Positions 12,326 to 63,289 of a stretch of DNA of 64,000 nt are shown in pieces. The notes under the pieces were generated by a model. It was not told where the DNA came from. It searched no databases and saw only the letters and a list, made by a program, of their open reading frames with translations. The DNA is taken from assembly GCA_030390025.1 (NCBI GenBank), contig CM059432.1, positions 8,928,001 to 8,992,000 on the forward strand, given 5' to 3'. The position numbers and the translations under genes were made by a program. The DNA is from Squalus acanthias. Lineage: Eukaryota. Positions within the stretch are counted from its first letter, which is position 1. The number at the start of each line of letters is the position of its first letter.

Positions 12326-12493
12326 GAATTATTCGCGTTGCTTTACCTAATATGGACAGGGAAGCCAAAGAACAGCACCTGGTTGTTATAGAGGCGAAGG
12401 ACATGGCTGGGCTAAAGGGAGGCCTCTCAGCAACAACCACCGTGACCATCACCTTGTCTGATGTTAATGACAACAGACCGAAATTCCAGCACA
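12326..12493 (+). CDS. cdh19: Type II cadherin coding exon, EC2 C-half
   Basis: cacag|GAATT...CAGCACA|gtaagt; 168 nt, phase 1-1. [55 protein letters not shown]; lies within ORF 12142..12501. Confidence 0.93.
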
Positions 12494-12789
12494 GTAAGTA
12501 ACTTCCAGCTCAACGGGAATTCTCATTATCATAAAAGATATAAATATTGAAGACAGCGCGTAATGTCTTCCTGGAACTATTAGCATAAACTTGTAACCAT
12601 AACTGCTTTTACAAACATACAGTGTAACTTGTTCGCAAAGGCCACCTGGAGTGGCAATCTGTCAGCCCGAGAAAAAAAAGAGATAAATAATTCAGGATGT
12701 GGAGACCACCCCCCAAGCGTCCTTTCAGTCCTGACTGTTATATACTGACCCGATCGCATCTCTACCGCAAGAGCTGAGGGTTCCAGGTT

Positions 12790-13335
12790 CCGGTCGCCTG
12801 TCACTTTAATTCTCCGCTCCACTCCCACTCTGACCTCGGCCTCCTACGCTGTTCCAATGAAACTCAACGAGGAACAGCACCTCATCTTTCGATTCGGCAC
12901 TTTCCAGCCTTCTGGACGCAACATTGAGTTCAACAATTTCAGATCATAACCTCTGCCCCCATTTTTTCAGACGGTAGTTGATGATTCTGCTATTCCCACT
13001 TACACCTCCTCCAGACCCATCTTTCATTTCTTTACTTGTCCCATTACCATCTCCTTTTGCCTTGCACCATCATCCCTTTTGTCATTTAATCTCTCCTGCC
13101 TCCCACCCTATCACAGACCTTCCCTTTTGTTCTTTCCTCACCTCCCCCCTTTCCCTGTCCCTACACCTGCTTAAAACCTGTTACATCTCCAACTTTTTCC
13201 GGTTCTGACGAAAGGTCATCGACCTAAAACGTTAACTCTGTTTCTCTCTCCACAGATGCTGCCTGACCTGCTGAGTATTTCCAGCATTTTTTGTTTTTAT
13301 TTCAGATTTCCAGCATCTGCAGTATTTTGCTTTTG
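12790..13335 (+). mobile_element. Penelope-like element 3' fragment (GIY-YIG C-terminus plus pseudo-LTR with degenerate hammerhead)
   Basis: Frameshifted PVACHFNSPLHSHSDL...EEQHLIFRFGTFQPSGRNIEFNNFRS* (stop 12947-12949); gtt-CTGACGA-a-aggtc-atc-gacct-aaaac-gtt-aac at 13202..13236. Confidence 0.8.
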
Positions 13336-13536
13336 TTGAAGGTTCTGGTTTTGTTGAAGGTTCTGGTTTTGTTGAAGGTTCTGGTTTTGTTGATGGTTCT
13401 GGTTTTGTTGAAGGTTCTGGTTTTGTTGAAGGTTCTGGTTTTGTTGAAGGTTCTGGTTTTGTTGATGGTTCTGGTTTTGTTGAAGGTTCTGGTTTTGTTG
13501 AAGGTTCTGGTTTTGTTGAGGGTTCTGGTTTTGTTG
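13331..13536. repeat. 18-bp minisatellite, 11 full copies plus partial
   Basis: (TTTTGTTGAAGGTTCTGG)n; units 4 and 8 carry GAT, unit 11 carries GAG. Confidence 0.97.
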
Positions 13537-13596
13537 TGCATTCAATACTTCGGTCGCCCGTTTTGGGTGTGCTGTGTGGGTTGGTTAGTAATGCTC

Positions 13597-14622
13597 ATTT
13601 TTTTTTTATTTGTTCATGGGATGTGGGCGTTGCTGGCAAGGCCAGCATTTATTGCCCATCCCTAGTTGCCCTTGAGAAGGTGGTGGTGAGCCGCCTTCTT
13701 GAACCGCTGCAGTCCGTGTGGTGAAGGTACTCCCACAGTGCTGTTAGGGAGGGAGTTCCAGGATTTTGACCCAGCGATGATGAAGGAACGGCGATATATT
13801 TCCAAGTCAGGATGGTGTGTGACTTGGAGGGGAACTTGGAGGTGGTGCTGTTCCCATGTGCCTGCTGCCCTTGTCCTTCTAGGTGGAAGAGGTCGCGGAT
13901 TTGGGAGGTGCTGCCGAAGAAGCCTTGGCGAGTTGCTGCAGTGCATCTTGTAGATGGTACACACTGCAGCCACGGTACGCCGGTGGTGGAGGGAGTGAAT
14001 GTTTAAGGTGGTGGATGGGGTGCTAATCAAGCGGGCTGCTTTGTCCTGGATGGTGTCGAGTTTCTTGAGTGTTGTTGCAGCTGCACTCATCCAGGCAAGT
14101 GGAGAGTATGTCATCACATTCGTGACTTGTGCCTTGTAGATGGGGGAAAGGCTTTGGGGAGTCAGGAGGTGAGACGCTCGCCGCAGAATACCCAGCCTCT
14201 GACCTGCTCTTGTTGCCACAGTATTTATGTGGCTGATCCAGTTAAGTTTCTGGTCAGTGGTGACCCCCAGGATGTTGATGGTAGGGGATTTGTCGATGGT
14301 AATATCGTTGAATGTCAAGGGGAGCTGGTTAGACTCTCGCTTCTTGGAGATAGTCATTGACTGGCACTTGTGTGGCGCGAATGTTACCTGCCACTTATCA
14401 GCCCAAGCCTGCACATCGCCCAGGTCTTGTTGCATGCGGGCATGGACTGCTTCATTATCTGAGGAGGTGTGAATGGCACTGAACACTGTGCAGTCACCAG
14501 TGAACATCCCCATTTCTGACCTTATGTTGGAGGGAATGTCATTGATGAAGCAGCTGAAGATGGTTGGGCCGAGGACACTGCTCTGAGGAACTCCTGCAGC
14601 GATGTCCTGGGGCTGAGATTGT
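13597..14622 (-). mobile_element. CR1/L2-group LINE (family B), RT C-half
   Basis: ORF 13662..14639 with GVPQSSVLGPTIFSCFIND and a degenerate FTGD (FADD) RT motif; family-B 3' end. Confidence 0.88.
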
Positions 14623-14929
14623 TGGAACTGTTGCTCCAAGATCCAGAAGTTGCCTGGTTCTGATACCTATTCTGCACTGAGTTCGCTGGAGTTGGGAGTG
14701 TTGCAATTAGCCTGAGTGTTCTTGGACTAGCAAGGGGAAAAATATCACCCAGCGTTCCCACTGCTGATCCCTTCGATAGGGTGGAAGGTGGGAATCGAGT
14801 CAGGATTAGGCTTGACTGGAATGCCTTGCATGATGGACTAGGCTGTCAACATTTACTCTTTAAGCTGACACATGAGGAATAATCAATTTAAGAAGATACC
14901 AGAGGGGACCTATCGCTCCTTCACGGGTA

Positions 14930-15770
14930 CTGTAGTGTAGTGGTTATGGTACTTAGACTAACAATCCCAAGGTCTGGATTAATAATCTAGAGAATGTGAG
15001 TTCATAATCTCACATTGGAATTAAGTTTTTAAAAGAAAATTGGAAATAAAAAAGCTGGTATCACGAAGAGTGACCATGAAGCTGTCGGATTGTCGGAAAG
15101 CCAAGTGTCAGTGGTTGCTCAGTGGGTAGCACTCTTGCCTCTGAGTTTGGGGTTCAAGTCCCACTCCCGGAGACTTGAGCACAAAATCTAAGGTGTCACT
15201 CCAGTGGAGTGCTGCACTGTCGGAGGTGCCGTCTTTCAGATGAGATATTAAATCGAGGCTCTGTTTGCCCTCTTAGGTGGACATAAAAGATCCCATGGAA
15301 CTATTTGAAGAGCAGGCAAGTTCTCCCCTGTGTCCTGGACAACATTTATCCCTCAACCAACACTCCAAAACAGATTATCGGGTCATTAACACATTGCTGT
15401 TTGTGGGATCTTGCTGTGCGCAAATTGGCTGCCACGTTTCCTACATTACAGCAGTGACTGCACTTCAAAAGTACTTCATTGGCTGTAAAGCGCTTTGGGA
15501 TGTCATGAGGTTGTGAAAGACGCTATAGAAATGCAAGTCTTTCTTTTAAAAACCCAACTGGTTTAAGAATGTCCTTTAGGGAAGGAAACCTGCCGTCCTT
15601 ACCCGGACTGGCACACCAACACAGTTGACGCTTTACTACCCTCTGAAGTGGCCATAGCAAACCGCTCGGTTGTGTCAAACGGCTGCGAGGAGAAGGATCA
15701 CTACCATCTCCTCAGGGCAACTAGGGATGGGAAATAAATGCCGCTTTGTCCGAGAATTAGTTTTTAAAAA
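14930..15770 (+). mobile_element. tRNA-headed family-B SINE-like element interrupted by a full-length Deu-SINE (about 15105..15545)
   Basis: tagtgtagtggttatg...gagttcat head; breaks at ggattgtcgg and resumes at aaaacccaactgg. Deu-SINE with A/B boxes lies inside. Confidence 0.75.
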
Positions 15771-16449
15771 AAAGCCTCATTCCAATGGCGAGTCGGAACC
15801 TTCGGGAGCTAGAGGGCTGTGGATGCTAAATCATTGAGCATATTCCAGGCTGAGATCGATAGATTTTTGGACTCTAAGGGAATCAAGGGATGTGGGGATA
15901 GTGCGGGAAAGTGGAGCTGAGGTCGAAGATCAGCCATGATCTTATTGAATGGCGGAGCAGGCTCGAGGGGCCGTATGACCTACTCCTGCTCCTAATTCTT
16001 ATGTTCTTATCTTCTAAGGGTAGAAAATTGGAAGGAAAAAAGTTAAAAGGCCTTTTGATGTGATGGCAGGTCTTCCATGGCCTGTAAAAGTATTCAATAC
16101 TCAACTGAGGGGAAGCATGCCAGTTCTTCTCCCAAGTCCATTCTGAACATTACAAATTATTACCAGTTTTAAAAAAGTGCTGGTCAAATAGTTTATATAA
16201 AGTAACTTCCATGTCATGAGCACTAATATTTCTTTTTATTCAACAACAACAGATCCTCATTTCTTTTTCAGATATGAGTTTTCATTGATTCATGTTTTAG
16301 TTTACTTTGTGCATTAAACACTAAGCAGCAAAAAAAAATCTGGTGAATAAAAGATATGTTACAGCGTCAAAATCCAGATGAAAGTGCAAAACCGCCAGAG
16401 ATCTACCTCACAGATCCAAACATTTCCAATTGCTTATAGATGTATAAAT

Positions 16450-17616
16450 AGAAAGACTTGTGTTTCTACAGCACCTTTCATGGCCTCAGGACGTCCCAAA
16501 GCATTTTACAGCCAATGAAGTACTTTTTGAAGTGTAGTCACTGTTTGTAATGTAGGAAACGCGGCTGCCAATTTGCGCACAGCAAGCTCCCACAAACAGC
16601 AATGTGATAATGACCAGGTAATCTGTTTTTTGTGATGTTGATTAAGGGATAAATATTGGCCAGGGCTCCGGGGATAACTCCCCTGCTCGTGGGATCTTTT
16701 ACGTCCGCCTTAGGAACATAGGAACAGGAGTAGGCTATTCAGCCCCTTGAGCCTGTTCCACCATTCAATGAGATCATGGCTGATCTGCGACCTAACTCCA
16801 TATACCCGCCTTTGGCCCATATCCCTTAATACCCTTGGTTAACAAGAAGCTATCAATCTCAGATTTAAGATTAACAATTGATCTAGCATCAATTGCCGCT
16901 TGTGGAAGAGAGTTCCAAACTGCTACCACCCTTTGTGTGTAGAAGTGTTTCCTAATTTCACTCCTGAAAGGTCTGGCTCTAGTTTTTACACTATGCCCCC
17001 TAGTCCTAGACTCCCCAACCAGCGGAAATAGTTTCTCTCTATCTCTACTCTATCTGTTCCCCTTAATATCTTGAAAACTTCGATTAGATCACCCCTTAAC
17101 CTTCTAAATTCTAGGGACTACAACCCTAGTTTGTGTAATCTCTCCTCGTAACGTAACCCTTGAAATCCGGTAAACCTGCGCTGCACTCCCTCCAAGGCCA
17201 ATATATCCTTCCTAAGGTGTGGTGGCCAGAACTGCTCACAGTACCCCAGGTGTGGTCTAACCAGGGCTTTGTACAGCTGCAGCATAACTTCTACCCCCTT
17301 GTACTCTAGTCCTCTAGATATAAAGGCCAGCATCCCATTAGCCTTTTTGATTATTTTCTGTACCTGTTCATGACAATTTAATGCTCTATGTACCTGAACC
17401 TCCCAAGTCTCTTTGGACGTCCACTGTTTTTAGCTTTTCACCATTTAGAAAGTACCCTGTTCCACCCTCTTTAGGTCCAAAGTGGATGACCTCACATTTG
17501 CTCACATTGAAATCTGATTTGCCGCAGTTTTACCCATTCACTTAATCTATCAATATCCCTTTGTAATTATAGAGAGCAGACGGGGCCTCGCTTTAACGTC
17601 TCATCTGAAAGACGGA
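16450..17616 (-). mobile_element. Deu-domain SINE interrupted by a CR1 (about 16712..17568)
   Basis: SINE pieces at 16450..16710 and 17570..17616 flank a CR1 (ORF 17118..17333, LVRPHLGYCEQFW). Confidence 0.82.
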
Positions 17617-19200
17617 TGCGTACAATTATGCAAACAATCAGGAAAATCCCATCGCTCCGGTATCTTCTGAAATTTGCAACTGATCAGACGTTGCTGCTCC
17701 CGCAATCCATGATTGTCATCATTATCCTCCATCAAAGTGTTGAACGTTCCTTTCCTGTGTCCATCCCTCCTTCCAAGCCGAAGGGGGAAATTTTCCTCCA
17801 TTGTGCTCTCTCCCCTCAGTACCACTCATCGCCAAACCACTGGTAACTGCCGCTCCACTTCCAGACAGAGGCTGTACAATCGGTGTCACGATTGGTACAC
17901 GATCGGTGTACGTGCCATGGCGCGCTCTCTTTCCAAACCACCCCCCCCCCAGCGCCATCGGCTCTGCCTTTTTAATTCCCTCCCCTTCAATCAATGGGGC
18001 ATCTTGTGCAGTAAGAACTGAGCGGTTATACCCATCAGGAAAGTAGGAGCTTTAGAATAAAGGGTCGCACTTTTAGAACTGAGATGAGGAGAAATTTCCT
18101 CTGAAGATGGTAAATCTGTGGAATTCTCTGCCCCAGTGAGCCGTGCAGACTGGGTCATTAAATACATTTAAGGTGGAGATAGACAGATTTTTGCAAGATA
18201 AGGGAGTGAAGGGTTATGGGGAGCAGGCGGTGAAGTGGCTTCGAGCCCAAGATCAGCCATGATCTTATTGAATGGCGGAGCAGGCTCGAGGGGCCAAGTG
18301 GCCTATTCCTGCTCCTATTTCTTATGTTCTTATGTCACAATCTGAGAACATCTGCGTTGAGGCGCTGTCCACACCCAGTGCTACATAAATGTTTAGCGTT
18401 CATCCGGAAATCAGTCGGAGAAAGCTTGTTCCCCCTGTCTAAACTCACTATTATCTTTTTTCCCTTGAGCTTGCACCAGATGGCACTCCACTGCAAGTGA
18501 AAAACGGATAATAAATAAAATGGATAATGTGGTGGGCTGAGAGAAACAGAGTGACAATCACAGTGAGGCACAGGTAACACAGGAAACCTGTCACATAGAG
18601 GGAATATAAATTCTCGTAAATCTGTTAAATGTTCAGTACACTAAAAAAATACCTAATGGCCCACTTGTTTTTGTTGGGGGGGTGGGAGTGTATTTGCATC
18701 CGTGTTTTTTTTATTCATTCATGGGATGTGGGCGTCGCTGGCAAGCCCAGTATTTATTGCCCATCCCTAATTGCCCTTGAGAAGGTGGTGGTGAGCCACC
18801 TTCTTGAACCGCTGCAGTCCGTGTGGTGAAGTTACTCCCACAGTGCTGTTAGGGAGGGAGTTCCAGGATTTTGACCCAGCGACGATGAAGGAACGGCGAT
18901 ATATTTCCAAGTCAGGATGGTGTGTGACTTGGAGGGGAACTTGGAGGTGGTGGTGTTCTCATGCGCCTGCTGCCCTTGTCCTTCTAGCAGGTAGAGGTCG
19001 CGGGTTTGGGAGGTGCTGCCGAAAAAGTGCGATACAAAAATTGCAGTTATTACTGGGGAGGAAAGGTTGCTGATCCAGGAGCAAACTGATCACGGACAAA
19101 GAGAGTGAGACTACTTCAAGCCCCATTAATTGAGTTTCACCTTGCCTTTGTATAACTGCAACTTTAAACACAAAGCATCCTGCTGGACCATCTTTACATT

Positions 19201-19418
19201 ACACCAGGTTATAGTCCAACAGCTTTATTTGAAATCACAAGCTTTCGGAGCGCTGCTCCTTCGTCAGGTGAAGTGAAGAGATGCATCTCTTCACTTCACC
19301 TGACGAAGGAGCAGCGCTCCGAAAGCTTGTGATTTCAAATACGGCTGTTGGACTATAACCTGGTGTTGTGCGACTTCTCACATTTGTCCACCCCAGTCCA
19401 ACACCGGCATCTCCACAT
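19201..19418. mobile_element. Penelope-derived palindromic mini-element with target-site duplication
   Basis: 19201..19366 is a spacerless inverted repeat centred on ATGCAT with 2 mismatches. Flanked by direct repeat CATCTTTACATT at 19189..19200 and 19419..19430. Confidence 0.85.
19296..19332 (+). ncRNA. Minimal type I hammerhead ribozyme-like motif (mirror copy on - strand at 19235..19271)
   Basis: UCAC-CUGACGA-A-GGAGC-AGC-GCUCC-GAAA-G-CUU-GUGA: stem I UCAC/GUGA, stem II GGAGC/GCUCC, palindromic loopless stem III (AGCU), putative cleavage after CUU. Confidence 0.65.
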
Positions 19419-19449
19419 CATCTTTACATTGTTAGAGGTGGCAGGACAG

Positions 19450-20010
19450 TTACATAGATTACATAGAATGTACAACACAGGAACAGGCCATTCGGCCCAA
19501 CTGGTCCGTGCCGGTGTTTCTGCTCCACACGAGCCTCCTCCCACCCTACTTCATCTCACCCTATCAACATAACCCTCCATTCCTTTCTCCCTCTTGTGTT
19601 TATCCAGCTTCCCCTTAAATGGATCTATCCTATTCGCCTCAACCACTCCCTGTGGTAGCGAGTTCCACATTCTCACCACTCTCTGAGTAAAGAAATTTCT
19701 CCTGAATTCCCTATTGGATTTATTAGTCAATATCTTGTGTTTATGGCCCCTAGTTCTGGACTCCCCCACAAGTGGAAACATCTTCTCCAAGTCTACTCTT
19801 TCATCCTCTTAAAGGCTTCTATCGGGTCACCCCCTCAGCCTTCTCTTTTCTAGAGAAAAGAGCCCCAGCCTGTTCAATCTTTCCTGATAGGTATAACCTC
19901 TCAATTCTAGTATCATCCTTTTAAATCCATTTTTAGCACCTTCTTCAGTGCCTCAGTGTCCTTTTTACAATATGAAGACCAGAACTGTGCACAGTTCTAT
20001 AAGTGTGGTC
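19450..20010 (-). mobile_element. CR1 3' fragment
   Basis: ORF 19551..19790 (FPLVGESRTRGH...RRNFFTQRVVRMWNSLP). Confidence 0.82.
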
Positions 20011-20189
20011 AGTCACCTCTTCACTATTTTTGAAACATTTTGCAAAAACCTTTGTGAGCAGAGCTCTGCGCATTCATTGAATCACATGAGTGGCCCGAGA
20101 GCGAAATGGTGTCCAGCTGACACTGCGCGGTGGTGGCAATGAGTTGCAAATCTCTGAAGCAGCTACTGGTCATAACCCAGTACTGACAG

Positions 20190-23052
20190 TATAACAACAA
20201 CAACAACTTGCATTTATCCAGCACCTTTAACGTAGTAAAACGTCCCACGGCGCTTCACAGGAGTATTATAAGACAAAAACTTTGACATCGAGCCACATAA
20301 GGAGGAATTAGGGCAGGTGAACAAAAGCTTGGTCAAAGAGGTAGGTTTTAAGGAGCGTCTTAAAGAAGGAAAGAGAGGTAGCGAGGCGGAGAGGTTTAGG
20401 CAGGGAATTCTAGAGCTTAGGGCCCAGGCAACAGAAGGCACGGCCACCAAAGGTTGAGCGATTATAATCAGGGATGCTCAAGAGGCCAGAATTAGAGGAG
20501 CGCAGATATCTCTGGTGGATGTGGGGCTGAAGGAGATTACAGAGATAGGGAGGGGGGCGAGGTCATGGAGGGATTTGAAGACAAGGATGAGAATTTTGAA
20601 ATCGAGGCATTGCTTAACTGGGAGCCAATGTAGGCCAGCGAGCACAGGGGTGATAGGTGAACGGGACTTGGTGCAAGTTAGGACACGGGCAGCTGAGTTT
20701 TGGATGACCTCAAGTTTACGTAGGGTAGAACGTGGGAGGCCGGCCAGGAGTGCGTTGGAATAGTCAAGTCTAGAGGTAACAAAGGCATGGATGAGGGTTT
20801 CAGCAGCAGATGAGCTGAGGCAGAGGCGGAGACGGGCGATGTTACGGAGGTGGAAATAGGCGGTCTTAGTTATGCCGCTGATATGTGGTCGGAAGCTCAT
20901 TTCAAATTTGACACCAAGGTTGCAAACAGTGTGGTTCAGCCTCAGACAGATGTTGGGGAGAGGGATGGAGTCAATGGCTAGGGAACGGAGTTTGTGGCGG
21001 GGACCGAAAACAATGGCTTCGGTCTTCCCAATATTTAATTGGAGGAATTTTCTGCTTATCCAGAACTGGATGTCAGACAAGCAGTCTGACAATTTAGAGA
21101 CCGTGGAGGGGTCGAGAGGTGTGGTAGCTGGGTGTCATCAGTGTATGTGTAGAAACTGACACTGTGTTTTCGGATGATGTCACCAAGGGGCAACATGTAG
21201 ATGAGAAATAGGAGGGGGCCAAGGATAGATCCTTGGGGGACACCAGAGGTAATGATGCAGGAGTGGGAAGAGAAGCCATTGCAGGTGATTCTCTGGCTAC
21301 AATTAGATAGAAAAGAATGGAACCAGGCGAGTGCAGTCCCACCCAGCTGGACAACAGTGGAGAGGCGTTGGAGAAGGATGGAGTAGTCAACCGTGTCAAA
21401 AACTGCAGACTGGTCAAGAAGGGCGAGGAGGTATAGTTTACCTTTGTCACAGTCACAAAGGATGTCATTTGTGACTTTGATGAGAGCCATTTCAGTACTG
21501 TGGCAAGGGCGGAAACCTGACTGGAGGGATTCAAACATGGAGTTGCGGGAAAGATGGGCACGGATTTGGGAGGCGACAACACGTTCAAGGACTTTGGAGA
21601 GGAAAGAGAAGTTGGAGATGGTGCGGTAGTTTGCAAGGACGGAGGGGTCAAGGGTTGTTTTTTTGAGGAGAGGGGTGATGACGGCAGATTTGAGGGAGAG
21701 GGGGACAGTACCTGAGGAGAGAGAACCGTTAACAATGTCAGCTAACATGGGAGCCAGCAAAGGAAGTTGGGTGGTCAGCAGTTTGGTGGGAATAGGGTCG
21801 AGGGAGCAGGAAGTGGGTCTCATGGACAAGATGAGTGCGGAGAGGTCATGAGGGGAGATCGGAGAGAAACTGGAAAAAGATGTGAGTTCAGGGCTAGGGC
21901 AGGGGGGAACCTTAGAGGAAGTTTGGCCCGGTGGGCTAGGGGAAGGAAGGGAAGTGGCAGAGGCAGCTGAACGAATGGTCTCAATCTTAGAGACAAAGAA
22001 GTCCATGAGCTCCTCACACTTGTTGTCGGAGGTGAGGGTGGAGGAGACAGGGGAAAGGGGTTTAAGAAGACATTTAGCAGTAGAGAATAGAAGCCCGGGT
22101 TTATCTTTGCATTCCAGAATGATTCTGGAATAGTGAGCAATTTTGGCAGACGAGAGCAGGACCTGATAATGCTTTATGTGGTCCAGCCAGATCTGGCGGT
22201 GAATGGCTAAACCAGTTGTCCGCCACATCCGTTCAAGTCTGCGTCCCTTAGACTTAAGGGAGCGAAGATGAGGGCCGTACCAGGGGCAACGGCCAGGGTG
22301 AGAGAGATTGTTTTAATAGGGACTAGGGCATCAAAGGTGATGTTGAAGGTGTGGTTGAGCAGATCGGTAACTGCAGAAATGGGGTGGTGAATGGAGGGCC
22401 AAAGGCTGGACAGTTGGGATTTTATAAGTGCAGTTGTAAGAGAGTTGGAAAGAGAGGTTTTTCCAGGGGTGGACACTGAAAGAAGTAGGGTTGCAGGGGG
22501 AAAGGGGGATGTGGGTGGACAGCGATACGAGGAAGTGGTCAGAGATGGCCTTATCTGCGATTGACATGATGGGAGTAGCAAGGCCACAAGAGATGACAAG
22601 GTCGAGATGGTGGCCGTGAATATGGGTTGGGGAGTTTACATGGAGGAGAGATTAAGGGAGGATAGGAGGCTAGTGTACTCAGAGGAGAGAGAGCATGATG
22701 AATTGAGATGAAGGATGAAATCACCGAGGATGAGAAGTCGTTTGGTGCAGAGACTGAGGGAGGACAGCAATGAAGATATCTCGGTAATAAAATGTTTATG
22801 GTACTTGGGTAGGCGGCAGAGAATGAGAATTTTAAATGAGAGGAGAGAGGGGTGGAGTAAGGTGAGATGCTCAAAGGAGGAGAAAGTGCCGGAGGAGTAG
22901 GGGGACAGACCAAGGTGTGATTTGGTGATGACAGCCACACCGCCGCCACGGCGGTCTGAGCGGGGCAAGTGGTGGAAGGTATAGCCAGGCGGGGAGGCTT
23001 CATTTAAGGGTAAGGTGTCATCACCCCTCAACCAAGTTTCCGTCAGGGCCAT
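20190..23052 (-). mobile_element. L2-clade LINE, near-complete but frameshifted ORF2 (APE endonuclease plus RT)
   Basis: APE ORF 22636..23052 (ALTETWL...GGGVAV...LGDF); RT ORF 21056..22228 (QSGFRPCHSTE...GVPQGSILGPLLF...YTDD); C-terminal ORF 20478..21092 (HAFVTSRLDYSN...LHWLPV); (GTT)n tail near 20190-20210. Confidence 0.92.
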
Positions 23053-24411
23053 CTTATCCTCCCTTAATCTCTCCCTCCATGTAAACTCCCCAACCCATAT
23101 TCACAGCTCACCCCTCGACCCTGCCATTTCTCGTGGCCTCGCTACTCCCATCGTGTGAATCGCAGATAAGGCCAGCTCTGACCACTTCCTCGTATCGCTC
23201 TCCGCCCACATCCCCCTTCACCCACCACAACCCCACTTCCTTCAGTTTCCGCCCCTGCAAAAAACTCTCTCCCAACTCTCTTACAACTGCACTTATAATT
23301 AAGACGCCTTAGAATGGTCGAATCATAGAATCGCACAGCACAGAAGGAGGCCATTCGGCCCGTTGTGCCTGTGCCGGCTCTTTGAAAGAGCGATCCCATT
23401 AGTCCCACTCTCCCCTTGCTCTTTCTCCCTAGCCCGGCAAACTATTTCCCCTTCAAGTATTTATCCAATTCTCTTTTGAAAGTTACTATTGAATCTGCTT
23501 CCACCGCCCTTTCAGGCAGCGCGTTCCAGATCACAACAACTCGCTGCGTAAAAAAGAATAATTTCCCCCCTCTGGTTCTTTTGCCAATTATCTAAAATCT
23601 GTGTCCTCCGGTTACCGACCCTCCCGCCCGTGGAAACAGTTTCTCCTGATGGACTCTAATGAAATCCCTCATAATTATCTGTATCACGGTTCTGCTAATG
23701 ATTCATTTCACAGATTTATTATCTCTATGGGCTGCCCTGCAGAGCAGCTCGAAGAAAAACTGGTCAGATTTGGTGCATTTGTGAGCAACCGAATCAAGTA
23801 TCAACCATTGCTGGCACACGGACCCTTGATCACAGCACAGTAAAGCAAACTGACATATTATATCTCCATCTCACTGGAACTAATCATATAAGTAAATTAC
23901 AGAAGGTCTTAAAAGAGCATCCAATTGATAGAGCACCATATAAAGCTCACGGTAATGACTGCTGGAGCTCAACAATTGGCCTCAGCTGGCTGGAGCAGCG
24001 AGTGGGAAGGGAAAGAAAAGCTTGTGATCCCACTCAATGATGTTGCTGGAAAGCGTATGTGCTTGGCTGTTAGATGAGCAAAGGATTGGCTCATCTGTAA
24101 TGGCCTGGGTGATCAAATAGGCTGTCAGCACTCCCTGTCAAGGCTTCACACGTGAAGAATTGTCGCTTGGGTGAGGTACTGAAAGGCCTGCAGGCAACCC
24201 GTGGCGCTTGCATCTCCAGCATCACTCAGCACTTCCGAAATGTGAAGGGGGAGAAAAAAAAAAGGAAATTAGAAACAAAACCGGAAAAAGTACATTGTGT
24301 TATTTTGCTCAGCCTCAGGACGATTTACTGGGGTTTTTGCGTCGGAGGTTGGTGAACTCGAGGGAAGCCGCGGAGAAAGATGTCATAAAGTACTCGATGA
24401 TTAAACACAAG

Positions 24412-25147
24412 GGGCTCGAGTTTCCGCTCGTTTCCGCCGCTAATATCAGCGCAATCCAGGCTAAATCGGCCGAACCGCCTCAAAAGAGCGGGGAATTTGA
24501 AACGGAAGTGGGTTACGCCCAAAACCACTGACGCGCGTGCTTGCCGCAATCTTTTCCGCTGGTTCAAGCTTCAATTCGCCCGGATCAGGCCCCGCCCACA
24601 AAACCGGCCAGGTGGACATTGTCAGATTCCGCCGATAGCGCTAGTTCGGGAAGGCTCTTCAAACTGCGCTCACTTTCCGAGGCGCACAGGCTCCATTCGG
24701 CACGTTTTAAAAGTTTTTCATCTCAAAAAGTATTCCATTTACTCAGAAAACTGACTCATGTACACCAGCGAAACTATTAAGTGGTTCAGTACAAATTTTT
24801 TAAAGTAATTTTCAGTCATTTGAAATCAGGTTACTCACAGGTGGTGGACTGGACACTCTGATTACAAAGGCTTATTTTTGGTGATAAACCCACTTTCAGC
24901 TGTAATAATAGAGCTGCACCAGGTTACCGCTCTTAAACACATCCAGGAATACTTTTTAATGGCGAGAAAAATAAAGAAACGATCGCGTTCTATTACGCTG
25001 CCCGACTGCGCTGGTTCACGGAGGATTTTACGTTTGTGATTGTGCAAATGAATTTTACCAGAAACTTCAACTGTAACCTAGTCGGCGCAACTCCCAGTGC
25101 ATTTTGGGCGCAGTTTCCCGACTGCGCCCCAAGCGGAAACTCTACTC
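24412..25147. mobile_element. About 740-bp non-autonomous DNA transposon (Harbinger-like MITE); related copy in opposite orientation at about 52496..53222
   Basis: Imperfect TIRs (gggctcgagtttccgct / agcggaaactctactc). The termini of the 52.5-kb copy are diverged reverse complements of these. TSD not clear. Confidence 0.55.
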
Positions 25148-25439
25148 TGCTGTTGTCAAAGGGAGAGCGGTCCTGTGTCTTTATTTGTGCCGGGAGCTGT
25201 TTGCTTTGCCGTGCTCCACGGCTATCATTAGTGCCCTAAAACGGATTCTCAATCTCCAGTTTGCCTACTTTCTCCTTATTGCCTAATTAGTGCATGCTAA
25301 GAACCTAATTAAATTTAATTTGCTTGTGTTTGCTTATTTGTTTGATACATAATACATTCCTAGTAGCATGCGCTGCTGAATATGGATCTCTGAGACTGAT
25401 GGAGTCACACTTTGCTTAATCGCCTTTCCTCCTTTTCAG

Positions 25440-32280: not shown

Positions 32281-33164
32281 ATATCGCCCCTTTCACGACC
32301 TCAGGACGTCCCAAAGCACTTTACGGCCAATGAAGTACATATGAAGTGCAGTCACTGTTGTAATGCAGGAGAGGCGGCAGCCAATTTACACACAGCAAGA
32401 TCCCACAAACAGCAATGCGATAATGGCCGGTGTTGGCCGAGGGATAAATATTGGTCAGCACAACGGGAAGATCTCCCCTGCCTCGGTTTAATGTTTCATC
32501 CAAAATAGGGCACCTCCAACAGTGCAGCACGCCCACAGTACCGCACCGCAGGCCTCAAATTTTTGTACTCAGTTCTCCTAGACTGGGACTTGAACCCACA
32601 ACCTTCTATGAAACTCAGAAAGGTGAGAGTGCTACCCACTGAGCCATGGCTGACAACTATTAGCAACAACGTATTATTAAAAAAGTACCAAAGCTCTGGG
32701 AAAAGGATTATGGGGTTGAACTTGTGCACTTCAATTTATTCACAATTTGGTCAAACGCATATTTTGTATCTCGGAGTGTTCAGGGGTTGATTCACTCATG
32801 TGCGATTCTATTATGTTCCACATTCAAAGATTAAATTGGGCTACTTGCCAGAAAGTAGGTATTGGTGCGTGACTCAGAATGGAATGCCCTCCTTGAGAGG
32901 CCATGCTATTTTGGAAACTATAGCCGATGGATCCACTGAAAAATGATATTGATATATTTATTGGGGATTGTTGGGTCTATTATGGGGAGCTGAAGCTCCG
33001 CAGTGTTTGTACGCAATGATTCTGTCATTGTTGTTCTTTTATTTTTATTTTTAGCATATTATGATTCAAAAGCGCAGAGGTTGTGCAAGTATCGGTGCTG
33101 GGAGGATAAAAGCCGATGTCAGCTTGCCAAAGTCATAGACCCCCCCCATACACATAGAGCCGTC

Positions 33165-33317
33165 GGCCTAGAAATCCGTCTCGGACGGTGGCACAAAACG
33201 GTATCAGATCAGCCGCCCGTTAGAGGCAGCCCCTGATATTACGGCGCTGTGTATAACAGGCGGTCGATTTGATTACCGCCTGTTTTTGCGAAACGGCCCG
33301 AGATGAATTTCTTAGCC
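33165..33317. mobile_element. Short Harbinger-like MITE; second copy at 43507..43642
   Basis: TIR ggcctagaaatccgtctcgg / ccgagatgaatttcttagcc. The copy at 43507 has ggcctagaaattcatcttgg / ccggagacgaatttctagccc. Confidence 0.65.
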
Positions 33318-35734
33318 ATTGTATCTTGCAGCACAGAAGGAGGCTATTCGGCCCGTTGTGCCTGTGCCGGCTCTTTGAAGGAGCCGTCCAATTTAGACCC
33401 ACACCCCAGCTTTCTCCCCACAAACCTGCAAATTAGTTCCCTTCAGGTACTTGCAGAGAAAGAAGGAAAGAAAGGACTTGCATTTCTATAGCGCCTTTCA
33501 CGATCTCAGGACGTCCCAAAGCGCTTTGCAGCCAATGAAGTACTTTTTGAAGTGTAGTCGCTGTTGTAATGTAGGGAAACGCGGCAGCCAATTTGTGCAC
33601 AGCAAGCTCCCACAAACAGCAGTGCGATAATTACCAGACAATCTGTTTTAGTGATATTAGTTGAGGGATAAATATTGGCCAGGACACCGGGGAGAACACC
33701 GCTGCCGTTTTTGTCATTCTTATTTCCTTCTCTATTGGGATGTGGGCGTCGCTGGCAAGGCCAGCATTTATTGCCCATCCCTAATTGCCCTTGAGAAGGT
33801 GGTGGTGGGCCTTATTCTTGAACCGCTGCAGTCCGTGTGGTGAGGATGCTCCCACTGTGCTGTTAGCGAGGGAGTTCCAGGATTTTGACCCAGCGACGAT
33901 GAAGGAACGGCCGATATACTTCCAAGTCAGGATGTTGTGTGACTTGGAGGGGATGATCGAGGTGATGGTGTTCCCATGCGCCTGCTGCCATTGACCTTCT
34001 AGCTGGTAGCGGTCACAGCTGTGGGAGATGCGGTTGAAGAAGCCTTGACTCTTTGGCCAGAGAGCTGAGATGTCAGGACCATGGTGCTTCCAATATGTTT
34101 GCTTCGCTTTTCAGAAGACATTCTGAAGCTTTATAAATCACTGGTTGGGCCTCAGCTGGAGTACTGAGTTCAATTCCGGGCACCACACCTTAGAGAGGGT
34201 GCAAAAGAGATTTACTAGAATGGTAACCAGGGATGAGGGACTTCAGTTATGTGGAGAGACTGGAGAAGCTGGGGTTGTTATCCTTCGAGCAGAGAAGGTT
34301 AAGAGGAGATTTAATAGAGGTGTTCAAAATCATGATAGAGTAAATAAGGAGGAACTGTTTCCAGTGGCAGCAGGATCGGTAACCAGAGGACGCAGATTTA
34401 AGGTGATCAGCGAAAGAACCAGAGCCGACACGAGGAAACATTTTTTTACACAGTGAGTTGTTGTGATCTGGAATGCGCTGCCTGAAAGGGTGGAGAAAGC
34501 AGATTCAGTAGTACCATTCAAAAGGGAATTTGATAAACATTTGAAGGGAATTTTTTTTCAGGGTCATGGGGAATGTGCGGGGGAGTGGGACTAATTGGAT
34601 AGTTCTACCAAAGAGCCGGCGCAGGCACGATGGGCTGAATGGCCTCCTTCTGTGCTGTGTCATTCTATAATTCTATGATTACTCCTGTAATAGAATCAGA
34701 TGTCTATTGTTACTGCACTGTATTAAAAGATAGGGACTAATAAGTTGCCAGCAAGGGCTATTAGGTACTCGGAGAGCTTCTGCTGTGAGCTTATTTTGGG
34801 CATTTTCTTTGAGAAATGAGCCATTTGGCCCATTGAGCCTGTGCGACCATTTTTTTAAAGCCATGCCAACCCTTTAAAACCCAACACTTTGCCATTTCTC
34901 CGGACCGGTCGGCCTCTGGGCTGCTGCAACATTGCGCTGGCCTGGAGCTGGTCAGCTGCTGCGGAGCGCCCATTGTGTACCCGCAGCCTGCCAATCGTAG
35001 TGAGGTAGTGAGGCCTAGCCCTCAAAATGGACCTGAACTTCAGTCGGCACGGTCGAGCAGCCAGAAACCCTCCGCCAGTCAGTCACCCCATTAGATTTTT
35101 GTTGGGCAAGGGTATTAAGGGTTATGGAACCAAGGTGGCAGCATAGTGGTTATGTTACTGGACTAGTAATCCAGAGGCCTAGATTAATGATCTAGAGACA
35201 TGAGTTCAAATCCCACCACAGGCAGCTGGGGAATTTAAATTCAATTAATTAAATTAATCTGAAACTAGTATCAGTAATGGTGACCATGAAACTACCAGAT
35301 TGTCGTAAAAACCCATCTGGTTCACTAATGTTCTTTAAGGAAGGAAATCTGCTGCCCTTACCCGGTCTGGCCTATATGTGGTTGACTCTTAACTGCCCTC
35401 TGCGGTTCAAGGAGGCGGCTCACCACCACCTTCTCGAGGGCAATTAGGGATGGGCAATAAATGCTGGCCTTGCCAGCGACGCCCACATCCCATGAAAGAA
35501 TTTAAAAAAAGACGGTGTTAAGAAACAGATCATCTAAGTGAAATGGCGGTACAGGCTCGAGTGGCTGTATGGCCTACTCCTGTGCCTACATTATTTAAGA
35601 TCTACCCCCTATCTCTTGTGATGAGAAAAGCGCAGGAACAGGAAAATGCTGGACTCAGAAAGGCAGGCGGAGGGATAATTAGGAGGAATGCTACAATCTA
35701 TCCAGCCAAAATTTAGCACAGACTTTGAGTTGCT

Positions 35735-36270: not shown

Positions 36271-36444
36271 TCTGTAATCTAATAAGTTAATAGTTTTAAG
36301 AGGACAAAGCTGTAGAAAGCCAAATGCAGTTTCTTTAACAAAAGCAGAATACTGCAGATGCTGGACATCTGAAATAAAAGCAAAAAACTGCTGGAAACGC
36401 TCAGCAGGACAGGCGGCATCTGTGGAGAGAGAAACAGAGTTAAC

Positions 36445-38778
36445 GGGCTGAATTTTAATAGCCCTGAGGAGGCGGGTTTGGAGGCGGGTCGGCAGTGAAA
36501 ATCGGAAAAAATGGCTTCAGACACCCAACTCGCATCCAGCCCGCCCCCCACGCGATTTTCATGAGTGTCGGGTCAACCGCTCCCAAACTGACCCGACGGG
36601 AACCGGTGGGACAGGTAGTTAAGGCAGTTAAGAGCCTGTTAACTGCCTTGTTAATCCTATTTTTATCGTGGTTTCCCATTTTCGTGCCTCTGGCTCCTGT
36701 TTCCCGTCTTGTCAGAAACAGGCCAGCTGCAAGGAGACGAGTTGGTGGAGGACATGATTTGTAGTCATTGGTGCAGCACTTTAAAAGCGCTCCTGTAACA
36801 TGGCTGACATTCAAATGCAACAACTTTGTTGTTGGAGGTTTGGGATAAGACTTTGCAAATCTACTGACCTTGACTGTTCACGCTGACACCCATCTGCAGT
36901 GTTACCTGATTGGAATAATTTCAGGCCACTTTGTGTGTGCGCTTGCAAGCTTCTTGCCTCAACTGAAATCTATAGCAACAGGATGGGAACCATTTACATC
37001 CTCTCATCCTGGTCATCAGATTCAGAGGAAGAGCAGCCGCAGCAGCACCACAACCATCCACAACAGCAGCACCAGGAGCGCCAACCTCCTCCTCACCCAC
37101 CTGATGCTACACTGGACACAGGGCATCAGCCCCTGACAAAATTGCTGGCTGGGAGGCCAGCGATGGCATTACCATGGCTAGATTTTCTGCACTTGACGCT
37201 GTTAACACTGGCTGCCATATGATGCGCCCGGTTGACACCATCCCACACCAGCACCGTGAAGCATCCTTTTAATGTCCAAGCCATTCCATGCACACACATC
37301 ACTATCGCGAGGGGGCGGGGTGGGGGGGGGGGGAGTGGCGAGTTATGTTTGAACAATCACTGGAACTCAGTAAGACACTTCTCACGGTGCGCTCAGATCT
37401 GTCCAATAAGGGTCACTTTTGGAAAAAGATATTACACTATATGACAACACATTACCAGAAACTTCACATGGACATTGGCTAAACCTCTCAAGTGCCGACC
37501 CTTGTGTGTTGTTAGTTGGTATGCTTGCAGTAGGATGAGGGTGAGTGTGAGGGGTGGCTAGTGAGATGGGGAAGTGATAATGGCCCAAAAATTAGTGCCG
37601 CTACGCGAGAGTACGCACTGTGTACTCTCGCGTATTCTGTCTCCAATTGCCGGTTTTCTGCATGCACTGCGCATGCGCTGAAAACCGGCACTTGGTGAAT
37701 TCAAAAGGGGGCGGTTCCTAGGTGAACCGCGTGCGCGCTACAGGCTGCGCGCACGCAGTGCACTTAATGCTTTGGACGCGCAGGTAAGCATGGAAGATTT
37801 TAGACATAAAGAAAGAAGGTGTAAGACCCTCTTTTAACAAGGTAAGTACTTAATTAAGTATTATTTTGAATTTTTTTTAACAGGTATATCTTTTTTAGAG
37901 ACTTTAAAGACAGGTAAGTTTATTTTTATAACTTTTTAAAAGATTTTAAATTTTTTCAAATATTTAATTTTTTGTTTAAAATGGTTAATTTATTTAACTA
38001 TACTTATTTTATTAATGTGATGGGTTTTTTTTTAAATTTAATTGAGGTTTAGCTGTTCTTTTGGGGGGGTATAGTATTCATAGCTTTCACAGCCCTTATG
38101 TGAAAGCTATGAATGAAAGATGGTGTGCTGCCATTGGCTCTAACTGAGTCACGTGATCCCACAGCTCGCACGAATTAACTACGCCTGTGGGATACGAAAG
38201 CCCTGCACAGCTGCTGTCCAGAACATCAAGTTCGTGCGAGTTCGGACTGAAAAAGCCAGCGCGCAGTGAGAGATCGCGGGGAGGCCTTACCCTCGCACGA
38301 AGGCTCACTCACTAATTTTTGGGCCAATATAGATAGAGAGGGTTGGGTGGAGGTGCAAGGTAAGTTGGTGTCCTGGGAGGTCTCTTCCGCCCTTGGAAGG
38401 GAAGAAAACCTCCCTGCGTGCTGTGACTCCCTCCATAAGCATATAGAGGGAGTCATTGGAGAGTCTGGGTGCAGCCATGCACCTTTGTGCAGTGCTTGTC
38501 AGTGTTTGCAGCACCTCAATGCTGTCAAACACTGACAGATCAACTGTCAAACTCATTGTGGCCCTGGTTCCTTTAAGGAAACCGGCTGATGACGCGTCAT
38601 CAAATTACGTCATCAGACCCGCTTCCTGTTAATTGGCCGGTAAGCCCGTAGGGCGGGGCTTAACAAGGCCAATCAAGGGAAAATCACGTCTGCAGAGCGG
38701 AGGCAGCTGGGGGCGGGACCGGAACGCGGAAACCAGCTGACCCGCACCCATCCCGCCTCCAGAATTAAATTCGCGGCC
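36445..38778. mobile_element. Internally deleted PIF/Harbinger transposon
   Basis: Imperfect TIRs gggctgaattttaat / aattaaattcgcggcc; 3-bp TSD AAC (36442-36444 and 38779-38781) splitting a Penelope-type repeat. The minus-strand remnant MAAPRLSNDSLYMLMEGVTARREVFFP (in ORF 38305..38556) resembles the start of a Myb/SANT-like Harbinger partner protein. Confidence 0.7.
37582..38325 (+). mobile_element. 744-bp Harbinger-like MITE nested in the Harbinger relic
   Basis: Perfect 16-bp TIR GGCCCAAAAATTAGTG / CACTAATTTTTGGGCC; TSD AAT (37579-37581 and 38326-38328). Confidence 0.9.
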
Positions 38779-38835
38779 AACATTTCAGGTCGATGACCTG
38801 AGTGGACTCTGACCAAAGGTCATCGTGCCTGAAAC

Positions 38836-39445
38836 GGCCCTGAATTTAACTCCAGGTGGATTCCTCGCTCAGGTCTGAGTTAAAATTACAGTCGGGTCTC
38901 AATGATGTCATTGGGCCACAACATGCATATTTAAAGAAGGGAGGATGTTTCCCCTGGCTGGGGAGTCTAGAACCAGGGTTTCACAGTCTCAGAATAAGGG
39001 TCGGCCATTTAGGACTGAGATGCGGAGAAATTTCTTCGCTCAGAGGGTGGTGAATCTTTGGAATTCTCTACCCCAGAGGGCTGTGGAGGCTCAGTCGTTG
39101 AGTACATTCAAGACAGAGATCGATAGAATTTTGAATATTAAGGGAATCAAAGGATATGGGGATAGTGCAGGAAAGTGGAGATGAGGTAGAAGATCAGCCA
39201 TGATCTTATTGAATGGCGGAGCAGGCTCAAAGGGCCAAATGGCCGACTCCTGCTCCTATTTCTTATGTTCTTATGTTCTGATGACCCTGTTGTCTCCGGG
39301 CGGGTGTCCTTGCTGCCTGCTCAGGAGAACAGGCTAAAATTGCAGATGTTGCGATCAGGGCGGCTTTCGGCCAGGTAAGACCCAGGGGCGATTTTAACTG
39401 CCTGCCCGCCAGGTTTCTGCTGAGCGAGTAGGGTTAAAACACCCC
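38836..39445. mobile_element. Harbinger-like MITE relic interrupted by CR1 (about 38937..39278)
   Basis: Starts ggccctgaatttaac, ends gttaaaacacccc; CR1 ORF 38945..39184 lies inside. Confidence 0.5.
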
Positions 39446-40810
39446 TCACAGATGCTACGATAGCAAAATACTGCGGATGCTGGAAATCCGAAATAACAAC
39501 AGAAAACACTGGAAAAACTCAGCAGGCCAGGCAGCATCCGTGGAGAGAGAAACAGAGATGCTGCCTGAGCTGCTGAGTGTTTCCAGCATTTTCTGTTTTT
39601 ATTGCAGTTTCTTTAAACCTTCTCTGCCCTAAAGGTTAAAACTTTATATCTGCCGTATGTTTGGCTATTTTCCCTGCCACATAAACTTTTTAATATTATG
39701 TAGGACCTGAAAATTGCATAAAATATATTTAGCAAGTGAAAAATTTCCAGTAAATATCTGGAGACTGAGATCCTGTTGAAACTCTTGTTCTTTGCTGTTC
39801 CCGCTAATGCTATTGCCCAGAGAGCTGTTGGATTTGGAGCTTCGAGGGCAAGTGATTGGTCATTGCTTGCATCACCTCAGAAGACAGCATTTTCACTGCC
39901 AGTGGGAGTTTTAATGCAAACTCGCGCTACGTCTTTCGGACGGGACGTTAAACCGAGGGCCCCGTCTGCGCTCTCGGGTGGACGTAAAAGATCCCACGGC
40001 CACTATTTCGAAGAAGAGCAGGGGAAGTTCTCCCCGGTGTCCTGGGGCCAATATTTATCCCTCAACCAACGTCGCAGACAAAAAAAAAACCCCAGATGAT
40101 CTGGTCATTATCACGTCGCTGCCGGTGGGATCTTGCTGTGCACAAATCGGCTGCCGCGTTTCCCACATTGCAGCGGTGACTATGCTCCAAAAAAAGTGCT
40201 TCATTGGCTGCAAAGCGCTTTGGGACGTCCTGAGGTCGCGAAAGGCGGCTGTAGAAAAGCGAGTCCTTTTTTTTGTTACGAACGGTAAGTGGAGACATTC
40301 GCAGATCTTGTCGTGGGAATGTCGCGCAGCAACGCATCACTCGCCCTTTTGACGAGGTGTAATTGCTTGCGAGAGAACGCGCCTGACTTTTCAGATGAAC
40401 TCTCTGTATTAGTGGGGGCGGTGGGGGGGGTGGGGGAAAGGTCACTGGAACACTGGCTAGAATCCTTTAAAGCTTTGGGTTTCCAGTGCTCTTGAAAGTA
40501 GATGGAAAATGTGAAATACCGGGGGGGATTCGGCTGAGGAAGTCTGCAAATTACAACATCTCAAAAAATGGCTTATGCTGCTGAAAAGTTCATCCAAAGG
40601 AAGAGATTTGATGGACTCACGTGAATCAAACTGTCTCTCGGCAAATTAATTTTGCAGGAAATTTCTGGCTGGCTGGGGCTGCACACAATATCCTTCACAC
40701 CGGCATTTATCCATTCGCGGGACATGTGGCATTTTTCCGGATTCATTTTGTGGAGCTCCAAGTTTTACATAATAAAAATCAAATGGTACGCTTCTCTGTG
40801 AATTGCGCAG

Positions 40811-63114: not shown

Positions 63115-63289
63115 CAATGTTCCCTTTAAGCTGCGCCACTGCACGGCCACACAGTGCTCTGGAGCTCCTGCGCAGCCGGATCACCAGCTTTTAAATGGAA
63201 AAAACCGCACTTGCGTGGAATTTTGAATGGGCCGCTTCGCCCATTAAAGGGGCCGCGCAGCCCATTCAAAAAAATTAGAGAGAACATTG
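63115..63289. mobile_element. hAT-type MITE, same family as 25847..25996 in opposite orientation
   Basis: TIR caatgttccc / gagaacattg; degenerate 8-bp flanks gctacagc / tttccagc. Confidence 0.7.

What the first reader, a model, noticed from the sequence alone, without database searches (positions are those of the whole stretch)
19189..19430. Spacerless 166-bp palindrome carrying a minimal hammerhead ribozyme on each strand, with a 12-bp target duplication
Seen: 19201..19366 is an inverted repeat with 83-bp arms, no spacer and 2 mismatches. A 52-bp tail follows, and CATCTTTACATT flanks the whole unit. Each arm has UCAC-CUGACGA-A-GGAGC-AGC-GCUCC-GAAAGCUU-GUGA. Known: Penelope-like elements carry minimal type I hammerheads with palindromic, loopless stem III that are thought to act as dimers, and often insert with inverted pseudo-LTRs. 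Inference: a young, protein-free 218-bp retroelement that would contain a self-cleaving motif whichever strand is transcribed. In cadherin pre-mRNA it would instead fold into an 83-bp dsRNA stem (possible ADAR/Dicer substrate), and it could extrude a DNA cruciform.
Basis: partly seen in the sequence, partly recalled or inferred. Interest (0 to 1): 0.72.

Follow-up and report, generated by a model that had tools for sequence, protein, structure and literature searches.

The report
Fold-back Penelope retroelement stump, shark intron
This short mirror-image sequence in a shark gene's intron is the leftover end of a common Penelope-like jumping gene, inserted in a fold-back pattern already described for that class, and its self-cutting RNA motif is predicted to be locked inside the hairpin and unable to cut.

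Summary
In detail: 83-bp spacerless arms, a 12-bp flanking repeat and a minimal type I hammerhead on each strand, in an intron of a shark cadherin-7-like gene. It is not a dedicated 218-bp element. Contigs of three other runs show a very high-copy family whose head-to-head junctions differ (all 15 joints shown, of 272, have different breakpoints) and whose 3' ends cluster at about 19385 and 19421, giving a ~36-bp 'tail'. The centre hexamer is native to the family in two of those runs. A distant relative with the same hammerhead follows a Penelope-type GIY-YIG endonuclease. This is the published 'inverted pLTR + tail + TSD' insertion of Penelope-like elements (PMC3846280, PMC8557442). The ribozyme claim fails on folding: on either strand the antisense arm is made first, forcing the hammerhead costs 69 kcal/mol, and each strand has only one sense copy, so no dimer. 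An 83-bp dsRNA stem in pre-mRNA is plausible, untested. No read spans the locus. The scan reported this pattern before in two other shark genomes. Ordinary; modest interest.

The parts
19189..19200 (+). Left copy of the target-site duplication (12 bp, or 9 bp 19192-19200 plus 3 bp shared with the element's end)
   Evidence: family runs through 19421
19201..19286 (-). Inverted, 5'-truncated copy of the pseudo-LTR end; stops about 19 bp short of the family's usual inner 3' end; overlaps the direct copy in the 6-bp centre
19224..19229 (-). AATAAA hexamer of the repeat, intact on the inverted arm; also present in relative L002
19235..19271 (-). Minimal type I hammerhead motif, copy on the - strand; predicted cut 3' of 19239; predicted sequestered
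19281..19286 (.). Palindromic hexamer ATGCAT at the junction; native to the family in runs X2 and X9 (not shown for X1)
   Evidence: loose ends before 19281 and behind 19286 in X2; 4 of 8 listed X9 pieces start at 19281
19281..19421 (+). Direct, 5'-truncated copy of the pseudo-LTR end with its tail
19291..19295 (+). Initiator-like TCACT; in the family a TATATAA lies 21 bases upstream (not part of this copy)
   Evidence: X2 loose-end consensus, 21 contigs; same layout as in PMC3846280; function inferred
19296..19332 (+). Minimal type I hammerhead motif: stem I 19296-99/19329-32, core 19300-06, bulged A 19307, stem II 19308-12/19316-20, G12-A15.1 19321-24, palindromic AGCU, predicted cut 3' of 19328; predicted sequestered
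19338..19343 (+). Altered hexamer on the host-sense arm; both arm mismatches fall here and remove the AATAAA
19342..19406 (+). Stem-loop of the single repeat's 3' part (z -2.45, 2 of 200 shuffles as good); disrupted in the full palindrome
19386..19421 (+). Tail of about 36 bp, present at one end only
   Evidence: of 24 listed pieces, 8 run on for 300+ unlike letters past their 3' end, 5 from 19383-85 and 3 from 19417-21
19419..19430 (+). Right copy of the target-site duplication
12493..25438 (+). Host intron (approximate bounds) of a cadherin-7-like gene whose exons run in order from 1241 to 56066

Best explanation
A single, short insertion made by the enzyme of an autonomous endonuclease-bearing Penelope-like element (PLE), probably of the Neptune/Nematis kind. 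Steps: (1, inferred from PMC11167929) the enzyme nicks both strands of an AT-rich target that ends in ATT and starts reverse transcription at internal sites near the end of the pseudo-LTR; (2, shown from sequence) one cDNA starts at the outer site (19421, with tail), the other copy ends further in (19366); (3, shown for two relatives' runs, inferred here) both copies stop at a hexamer that is already palindromic in the family, and join there head-to-head, which makes the centre spacerless; (4, shown) repair leaves a 9-12 bp duplication. The product has no ORF and lacks the TATA box. In any read-through RNA, cadherin pre-mRNA included, the antisense arm is made before the ribozyme, so the unit folds as one 83-bp hairpin and the hammerhead is inert (computed, not assayed). 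It is most likely a neutral passenger; it may be edited or diced like other intronic inverted repeats.
For: High-copy family in three organisms' contigs: 13,825, 12,785 and 37,565 records laid, a count that includes the neighbouring SINE from about 19458. All 15 joints shown (257 more not shown) link left-arm to right-arm or tail sequence, each at a different pair of breakpoints, none at this locus's centre. Two clusters of 3' ends 36 bp apart. TATA-21 bp-TCACT layout, against 20 bp in rotifer PLE pLTRs, which also have 8-10 bp TSDs and palindromes at head-to-head junctions. Inverted 5'-truncated copy plus 30-40 bp tail at one end is the stated typical PLE arrangement. Dual minimal hammerheads on opposite strands 100-700 bp apart were reported in 2014. 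L002 carries a C-terminal GIY-YIG domain with CX2-5CxxC and two inner cysteines, followed by a repeat with the same hammerhead; similarity beyond the search pattern was reached by 7 of 2000 shuffles. L001 holds the same repeat joined to an inverted reverse-transcriptase fragment (RVT_1, E 1.5e-5). Hairpin -161/-168 kcal/mol, forced hammerhead +68.9; stepwise folding agrees, while the right arm alone forms the hammerhead stems.
Against: No shark ORF was linked to this repeat: tblastn of PLE proteins on the window found nothing, the in-frame peptide of the repeat end found no protein, and five of six DNA-pattern scans were empty. L001/L002 were selected by a pattern that forces 23 letters of identity, come from an unknown animal, and the left-arm part beyond the pattern scored only 36 of 2000; Pfam found no family for the L002 ORF itself. 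The joints have short sides (19-29 letters), which the tool flags as less reliable, and some recur in all three organisms at high contig depth, which could also mean that some composites were re-amplified. The centre hexamer was not shown to be native in X1, the run whose variants best match this copy. No read spans the locus. The inverted arm ends at 19366, not at the family's usual inner end.
Confidence: 0.87

Rival explanations
1. A dedicated non-autonomous 218-bp palindromic element that is copied as a unit by PLE enzymes.
For: Perfect centre and clean duplication; some junctions recur across three organisms with contig depths of 200-600 against about 37 for the single-copy flank in X2; pLTRs suffice in cis for mobilisation in rotifers.
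Against: 15 of 15 shown joints differ and none matches this centre; depth falls several-fold at the centre; the family continues upstream of the centre in X2; one copy only in 64 kb. No genome was held to count exact copies.
Confidence: 0.07
2. An active bidirectional ribozyme that cuts cadherin pre-mRNA or an antisense RNA, as monomer, trans-dimer or with protein help.
For: All core letters are intact on both arms; the anole PLE hammerhead is protein-assisted; a transcript starting at the initiator-like site inside the centre would lack the antisense arm, and the arm alone folds correctly.
Against: 68.9 kcal/mol penalty in read-through RNA; one sense copy per strand; single minimal motifs showed no cleavage and dimers only low cleavage; the TATA box is absent from this copy; the designed double-hammerhead (-20.7) is less stable than two monomers (-23.2) or the best cofold (-30.5).
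Confidence: 0.04
3. Assembly or library fold-back artefact.
For: Spacerless palindrome; no spanning record among 4 runs; such structures are known to trouble assemblies.
Against: Arms differ at two bases, one arm matching the family and one private; the inversion is confined to element sequence, bounded by a duplication, and the host exons stay in order on both sides; head-to-head joints occur in independent runs.
Confidence: 0.02

Closest known systems
Insertions of endonuclease-containing Penelope-like elements with inverted pLTR, tail and TSD (Arkhipova et al. 2013, PMC3846280; Craig et al. 2021, PMC8557442 fig. 2 legend)
   Same: Head-to-head inverted 5'-truncated copy overlapping the direct copy in a palindrome; tail of 30-40 bp on one side; TSD of about 9 bp; TATA about 20 bp before TCACT in the repeat.
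   Different: Here both copies are truncated inside the repeat end, so the whole insert is about 220 bp with no ORF, and the two truncation points coincide, giving zero spacer.
Minimal type I hammerheads of metazoan PLEs (Cervera and de la Pena 2014, PMC4209133)
   Same: Intact core, bulged base between 9 and 10.1, G10.1-C11.1 pair, 4-bp helix I, palindromic 15.2-16.2, no helix III loop; dual motifs on opposite strands were already noted.
   Different: Helix II is 5 bp, shorter than the 7-8 bp given for Schistosoma; H17 is U here (C in 23% of X1 depth, A in L001/L002); sharks are not named in the parts read; covariation not shown here.
Poseidon element of Anolis (Frangieh et al. 2024, PMC11167929)
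   Same: Cuts and extends both strands, prefers ATT, starts reverse transcription at two internal sites that define the tail: these fit the two 3' end clusters and the ATT at the end of the duplication.
   Different: Different clade (the relative here has the Neptune/Nematis zinc finger); the parts of that paper read do not explain the inverted copy.
Non-LTR retrozymes (PMC7761336; bioRxiv 10.64898/2026.07.22.740005)
   Same: Protein-free, type I hammerhead, derived from PLE pLTRs.
   Different: Retrozymes are head-to-tail tandems with two or more same-strand ribozymes that can release a circle; this unit is head-to-head with one ribozyme per strand.

Membership tests
EN+ Penelope-like element insertion | Hammerhead motif within the terminal repeat | tested here: met
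EN+ Penelope-like element insertion | Inverted 5'-truncated copy joined head-to-head, junction variable between insertions | tested here: met
   (15 joints shown of 272, all different; short sides)
EN+ Penelope-like element insertion | 30-40 bp tail at one end only | tested here: met
   ends at 19383-85 (5 pieces) and 19417-21 (3 pieces) among 24 listed of 64,949; reading of record coordinates is mine
EN+ Penelope-like element insertion | Short target-site duplication with an empty allele elsewhere | tested here: inconclusive
EN+ Penelope-like element insertion | TATA box and initiator in the pLTR | tested here: met
   (X2 consensus); sequence motifs only, the TATA lies outside this copy
EN+ Penelope-like element insertion | Repeat flanks an RT + C-terminal GIY-YIG ORF in full-length members | tested here: inconclusive
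   Shown for distant relatives L001/L002; not found for the shark family
Neptune/Nematis clade | CX2-5CxxC zinc finger before the GIY-YIG motif | tested here: inconclusive
   Present in L002; no shark ORF available, no RT tree built
Minimal type I hammerhead | Core letters C3-A9, G12-A15.1, U16.1, H17; bulge after A9; G10.1-C11.1; palindromic 15.2-16.2 | tested here: met
Minimal type I hammerhead | Compensatory changes in the stems across copies | tested here: inconclusive
   table 3 (40 of 48 rows shown): changes fall in loop II, H17 and one CpG that includes G12 (5-10% of depth); no compensatory pair seen
Minimal type I hammerhead | Self-cleavage as dimer or with protein | not testable with these tools
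   folding argues against it in this context
Non-LTR retrozyme | Head-to-tail tandem with at least two same-strand hammerheads | tested here: not met
   one motif per strand
Fixed-structure non-autonomous palindromic element (MITE-like) | Same ends and centre in many copies | tested here: not met
   variable junctions in relatives' runs; own genome not held
Rfam RNA families (microRNA precursors, hammerheads) | Score at or above the gathering threshold | tested here: not met
   only sub-threshold hairpin matches, no hammerhead model hit

The most novel reading that the evidence does not exclude
The two arms are copied from two RNA molecules held together through the hammerhead's palindromic AGCU by a dimeric PLE enzyme that primes from both nicked strands, so the motif's main job is template dimerisation rather than cutting; and the resulting head-to-head geometry always puts antisense before sense, silencing the ribozyme, so these stumps are tolerated in introns, where tandem (cleavable) copies are not, and supply perfect dsRNA that restrains the family. 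The loss of AATAAA only on the host-sense arm would be a trace of selection on such intronic copies.
Probability: 0.12. Interest if true: 0.62.

Novelty: new member of a known kind. Interest (0 to 1): 0.2.

Why it matters
As a single locus it matters little: a probably neutral stump in a shark intron. As a class, these very short, TSD-bounded, high-copy insertions record both reverse-transcription start sites, the junction and the target in about 220 bp, so they are a good data set for the open question of how Penelope-like elements build their inverted copies (self-priming on one template against two-template priming). They also warn that counting hammerhead motifs overstates active ribozymes, because head-to-head copies are predicted to be self-sequestered.

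Tried and rejected
Own genome: not held, so no copy count, TSD survey or centre survey in this species. Rfam: no family at gathering score in the window or L001/L002; the miRNA matches are generic hairpin hits. Linking the repeat to a shark ORF through its in-frame peptide: 0 hits in the representative library, 0 of 4 candidates. DNA-pattern scans: a 22-letter repeat motif gave 0 in metagenome, viral and prokaryote collections; the hammerhead pattern gave 0 in viral and prokaryote collections and 2 in metagenomes. The bacterial promoter scan is irrelevant to this host. Earlier-findings look-ups by sequence, by place and one by words were empty. The 2017 paper on dimer cleavage of PLE hammerheads was not held; seen only as a title in reference lists. 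Considered and rejected: miRNA gene, retrozyme, MITE, assembly fold-back (reasons under rivals and membership). The idea that the two arms come from different subfamilies was considered; the right-arm letters are rare in the family, so a private change is likelier and the arms do not decide between one and two templates.

Full report
Observation. The sequence at 19189-19430 is as described. The arms are 19201-19283 and 19284-19366, 83 bp, no spacer, with two adjacent mismatches at 19342-19343. The 12-bp repeat occurs exactly twice in the window. The inner 58 bp per arm are perfect; the next longest spacerless palindrome in the window has 9-bp arms and 20 shuffles gave at most 10. A minimal-hammerhead descriptor hit only the two arms, against 1 hit in 30 shuffled windows. 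There is no other copy of the repeat in the window. Rfam gives nothing at gathering score.

Setting. The host is a shark by protein likeness: the last cadherin exon is 87% identical to a sawshark cadherin-7-like protein, followed by other sharks and rays. Ten exons lie in order on the + strand from 1241 to 56066, and the insertion sits in the intron between 12492 and about 25439. No whole genome is held.

The family. I laid 4 of the 24 listed public runs on 19031-19510 at 85% likeness. Contig sets of three organisms gave 13,825, 12,785 and 37,565 records, a count that includes the SINE starting near 19458; summed depth over the element is in the millions against 0-37 on the unique left flank. 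So this is a very abundant repeat family, though depth is not a copy number. Four things follow. First, all 15 joints shown (257 not shown) join left-arm sequence to right-arm or tail sequence, which is what a head-to-head junction looks like on this stretch, and each has different breakpoints, offset by -21 to +54 bases; the tool warns that joints with sides under 30 letters are less reliable, and these have 19-29. Second, likeness to the family stops behind 19421 (121 contigs in X1, 391 in X9, 3 reads in X21), so CAT of the right repeat is shared with the element and the duplication is 9 to 12 bp. Third, of 24 pieces listed (of 64,949), 8 run on for 300 or more unlike letters beyond their 3' end: 5 from 19383-19385 and 3 from 19417-19421. 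That defines a tail of about 36 bp; this rests on my reading that record coordinates follow the record's own direction. The inverted arm here ends at the equivalent of 19366, 19 bases short of the inner cluster. Fourth, in X2 the family continues upstream of 19281 (21 contigs), and 4 of 8 listed X9 pieces begin at 19281, so the centre hexamer ATGCAT is a palindrome already in the family; this was not shown for X1, whose letters at 19371 and 19379 best match this copy. The X2 upstream consensus holds TATATAA 21 bases before the TCACT at 19291-19295.

Age and reality. No record spans the stretch. An artefact is unlikely because the inversion is confined to element sequence, is bounded by a duplication, the arms are not identical and the exons stay in order.

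Link to an enzyme. A hammerhead pattern found 2 metagenome contigs. L002 encodes a C-terminal domain with CX2-5CxxC and a GIY-YIG-like motif with two inner cysteines, 44-47% identical to two unnamed proteins that carry RVT_1 or a weak GIY-YIG match; Craig et al. give these motifs for Neptune and Nematis (passages). Downstream lies a repeat with the same hammerhead, an AATAAA and a similar 3' part; beyond the forced pattern the right arm plus tail scored as well in 7 of 2000 shuffles, the left arm part in 36 of 2000. L001 shares 677 bp with L002 and is joined to an inverted RT fragment. This ties the motif family to endonuclease-bearing PLEs, but no shark ORF was found, so clade membership of the shark family is a lead.

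The ribozyme. Each arm has every core letter, a bulged A after A9, a 5-bp stem II, a 4-bp stem I and the palindrome AGCU in place of stem III, matching the traits listed by Cervera and de la Pena (parts 1-2 of 4 of the text). Among 40 variant rows shown (of 48), changes fall in loop II, at H17 (C in 23% of X1 depth) and at one CpG that includes G12 (5-10%); no compensatory pair appears. The single arm folds into the hammerhead stems. In the full unit it does not: the hairpin is -161 (+) and -168 (-) kcal/mol, forcing the hammerhead costs 68.9, and stem II probability is about 1e-18. Because the copies are head-to-head, the antisense arm is transcribed first on both strands, and stepwise equilibrium folding keeps the core paired at all 10 lengths tried on each strand. 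Each strand has one sense motif, so the dimer these ribozymes need cannot form in cis; single motifs showed no cleavage in vitro, and the anole motif needed protein and was dispensable for insertion. The claim of cleavage from either strand is therefore not supported. These are model energies, not assays.

Mechanism. Most likely a PLE enzyme nicked both strands at an AT-rich site ending in ATT, started cDNA at the outer internal site on one strand, and a second copy was made from further in; both stopped at the native palindromic hexamer and joined there. Two-strand cutting and extension, ATT preference and two internal start sites are from Frangieh et al. (parts 1-2 of 4). Whether the inverted arm comes from self-priming (proposed in PMC3846280) or from a second template is not decided by this locus.

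Comparison with what is known. Arkhipova et al. 2013 (passages and Discussion read) describe an inverted pLTR overlapping the direct one, an optional 31-bp tail, 8-10 bp TSDs, TATA 20 bp before TCACT, and abundant palindromes at head-to-head junctions. Craig et al. 2021 (passages) give the inverted 5'-truncated copy and one-sided tail as typical. Cervera and de la Pena noted dual motifs on opposite strands. siRNAs matching Penelope's inverted regions were reported in transgenic flies (PMC3681739, passages), so even the dsRNA idea has precedent. Retrozymes are head-to-tail and somewhat depleted from introns in Xenopus (bioRxiv 2026, part 1 of 5, passages and one section; PMC7761336 passages). 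PMC6155905 and PMC7334843 (passages) added nothing specific. Searches showed no paper on this shark family in their listings; repeat databases were not available, and I opened no supplements, though those of PMC4209133 and the 2026 preprint may list shark motifs. Two earlier scan notes reached the same reading on other shark genomes; they are not independent support.

One detail worth keeping. Both arm mismatches fall in the repeat's AATAAA, on the arm read in the host gene's sense; the antisense arm and L002 keep it. By my arithmetic a random two-base patch would land wholly in that hexamer about 3 times in 100, a post hoc figure. The same change also extends a local hairpin (-22.6 against -18.1 kcal/mol), so a templated mutation explains it equally well.

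Verdict. Real, and explained by known PLE biology: new member of a known kind, interest 0.2. The boldest reading left open, two-template priming through the hammerhead palindrome with self-silencing geometry, I put at 0.12.

Noticed in passing
window 13200-13331, 36343-36445, 38779-38836, 39466-39610, 49068-49173: A second, older repeat family with a minimal-hammerhead-like end (stem III palindrome ACGT). The three + strand motifs seen (about 13204, 38809, 49072) each have a core change; 38779-38836 is a head-to-head junction and 39466-39610 a fold-back truncated before the motif. Probably another Penelope-like family; not tested against an ORF.
   Followed up: partly
window 19338-19343 and 19224-19229: The only arm differences remove AATAAA on the host-sense arm and also lengthen a local hairpin; selection and templated mutation both fit.
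   Followed up: partly
window 19189-19200 against 19374-19385: The target duplication resembles the family's own inner 3' end (both end in ACATT), in line with a nuclease that also cuts its own repeat; printed side by side, not tested statistically.
   Followed up: no
window 19420-19422: Loose-end consensus behind 19421 begins with G in X1 and X9 (low agreement, 0.35-0.38), which would make an ATG in frame with the stop-free repeat end from 19333; may mark the family's ORF start. Protein searches with that frame were empty.
   Followed up: partly
L001 1-1050: Metagenome contig with a PLE repeat joined head-to-head to an inverted RT fragment; animal retroelement DNA within a metagenome assembly.
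   Followed up: partly
window 20478-23100 and 13662-14666: Frameshifted LINE remnants on the - strand with RVT_1 matches (E 2.7e-22 and 1.6e-10) in the same intron.
   Followed up: no
window 43506-43643, 808-885, 55244-55316, 61456-61494, 63221-63371: Other short imperfect inverted repeats; 43506-43643 has a relative at 33147-33318 and lies just before a cadherin exon; likely MITE-like remnants.
   Followed up: no
window 19450-19800: A high-copy SINE-like repeat begins about 20-28 bases after the right duplication.
   Followed up: no
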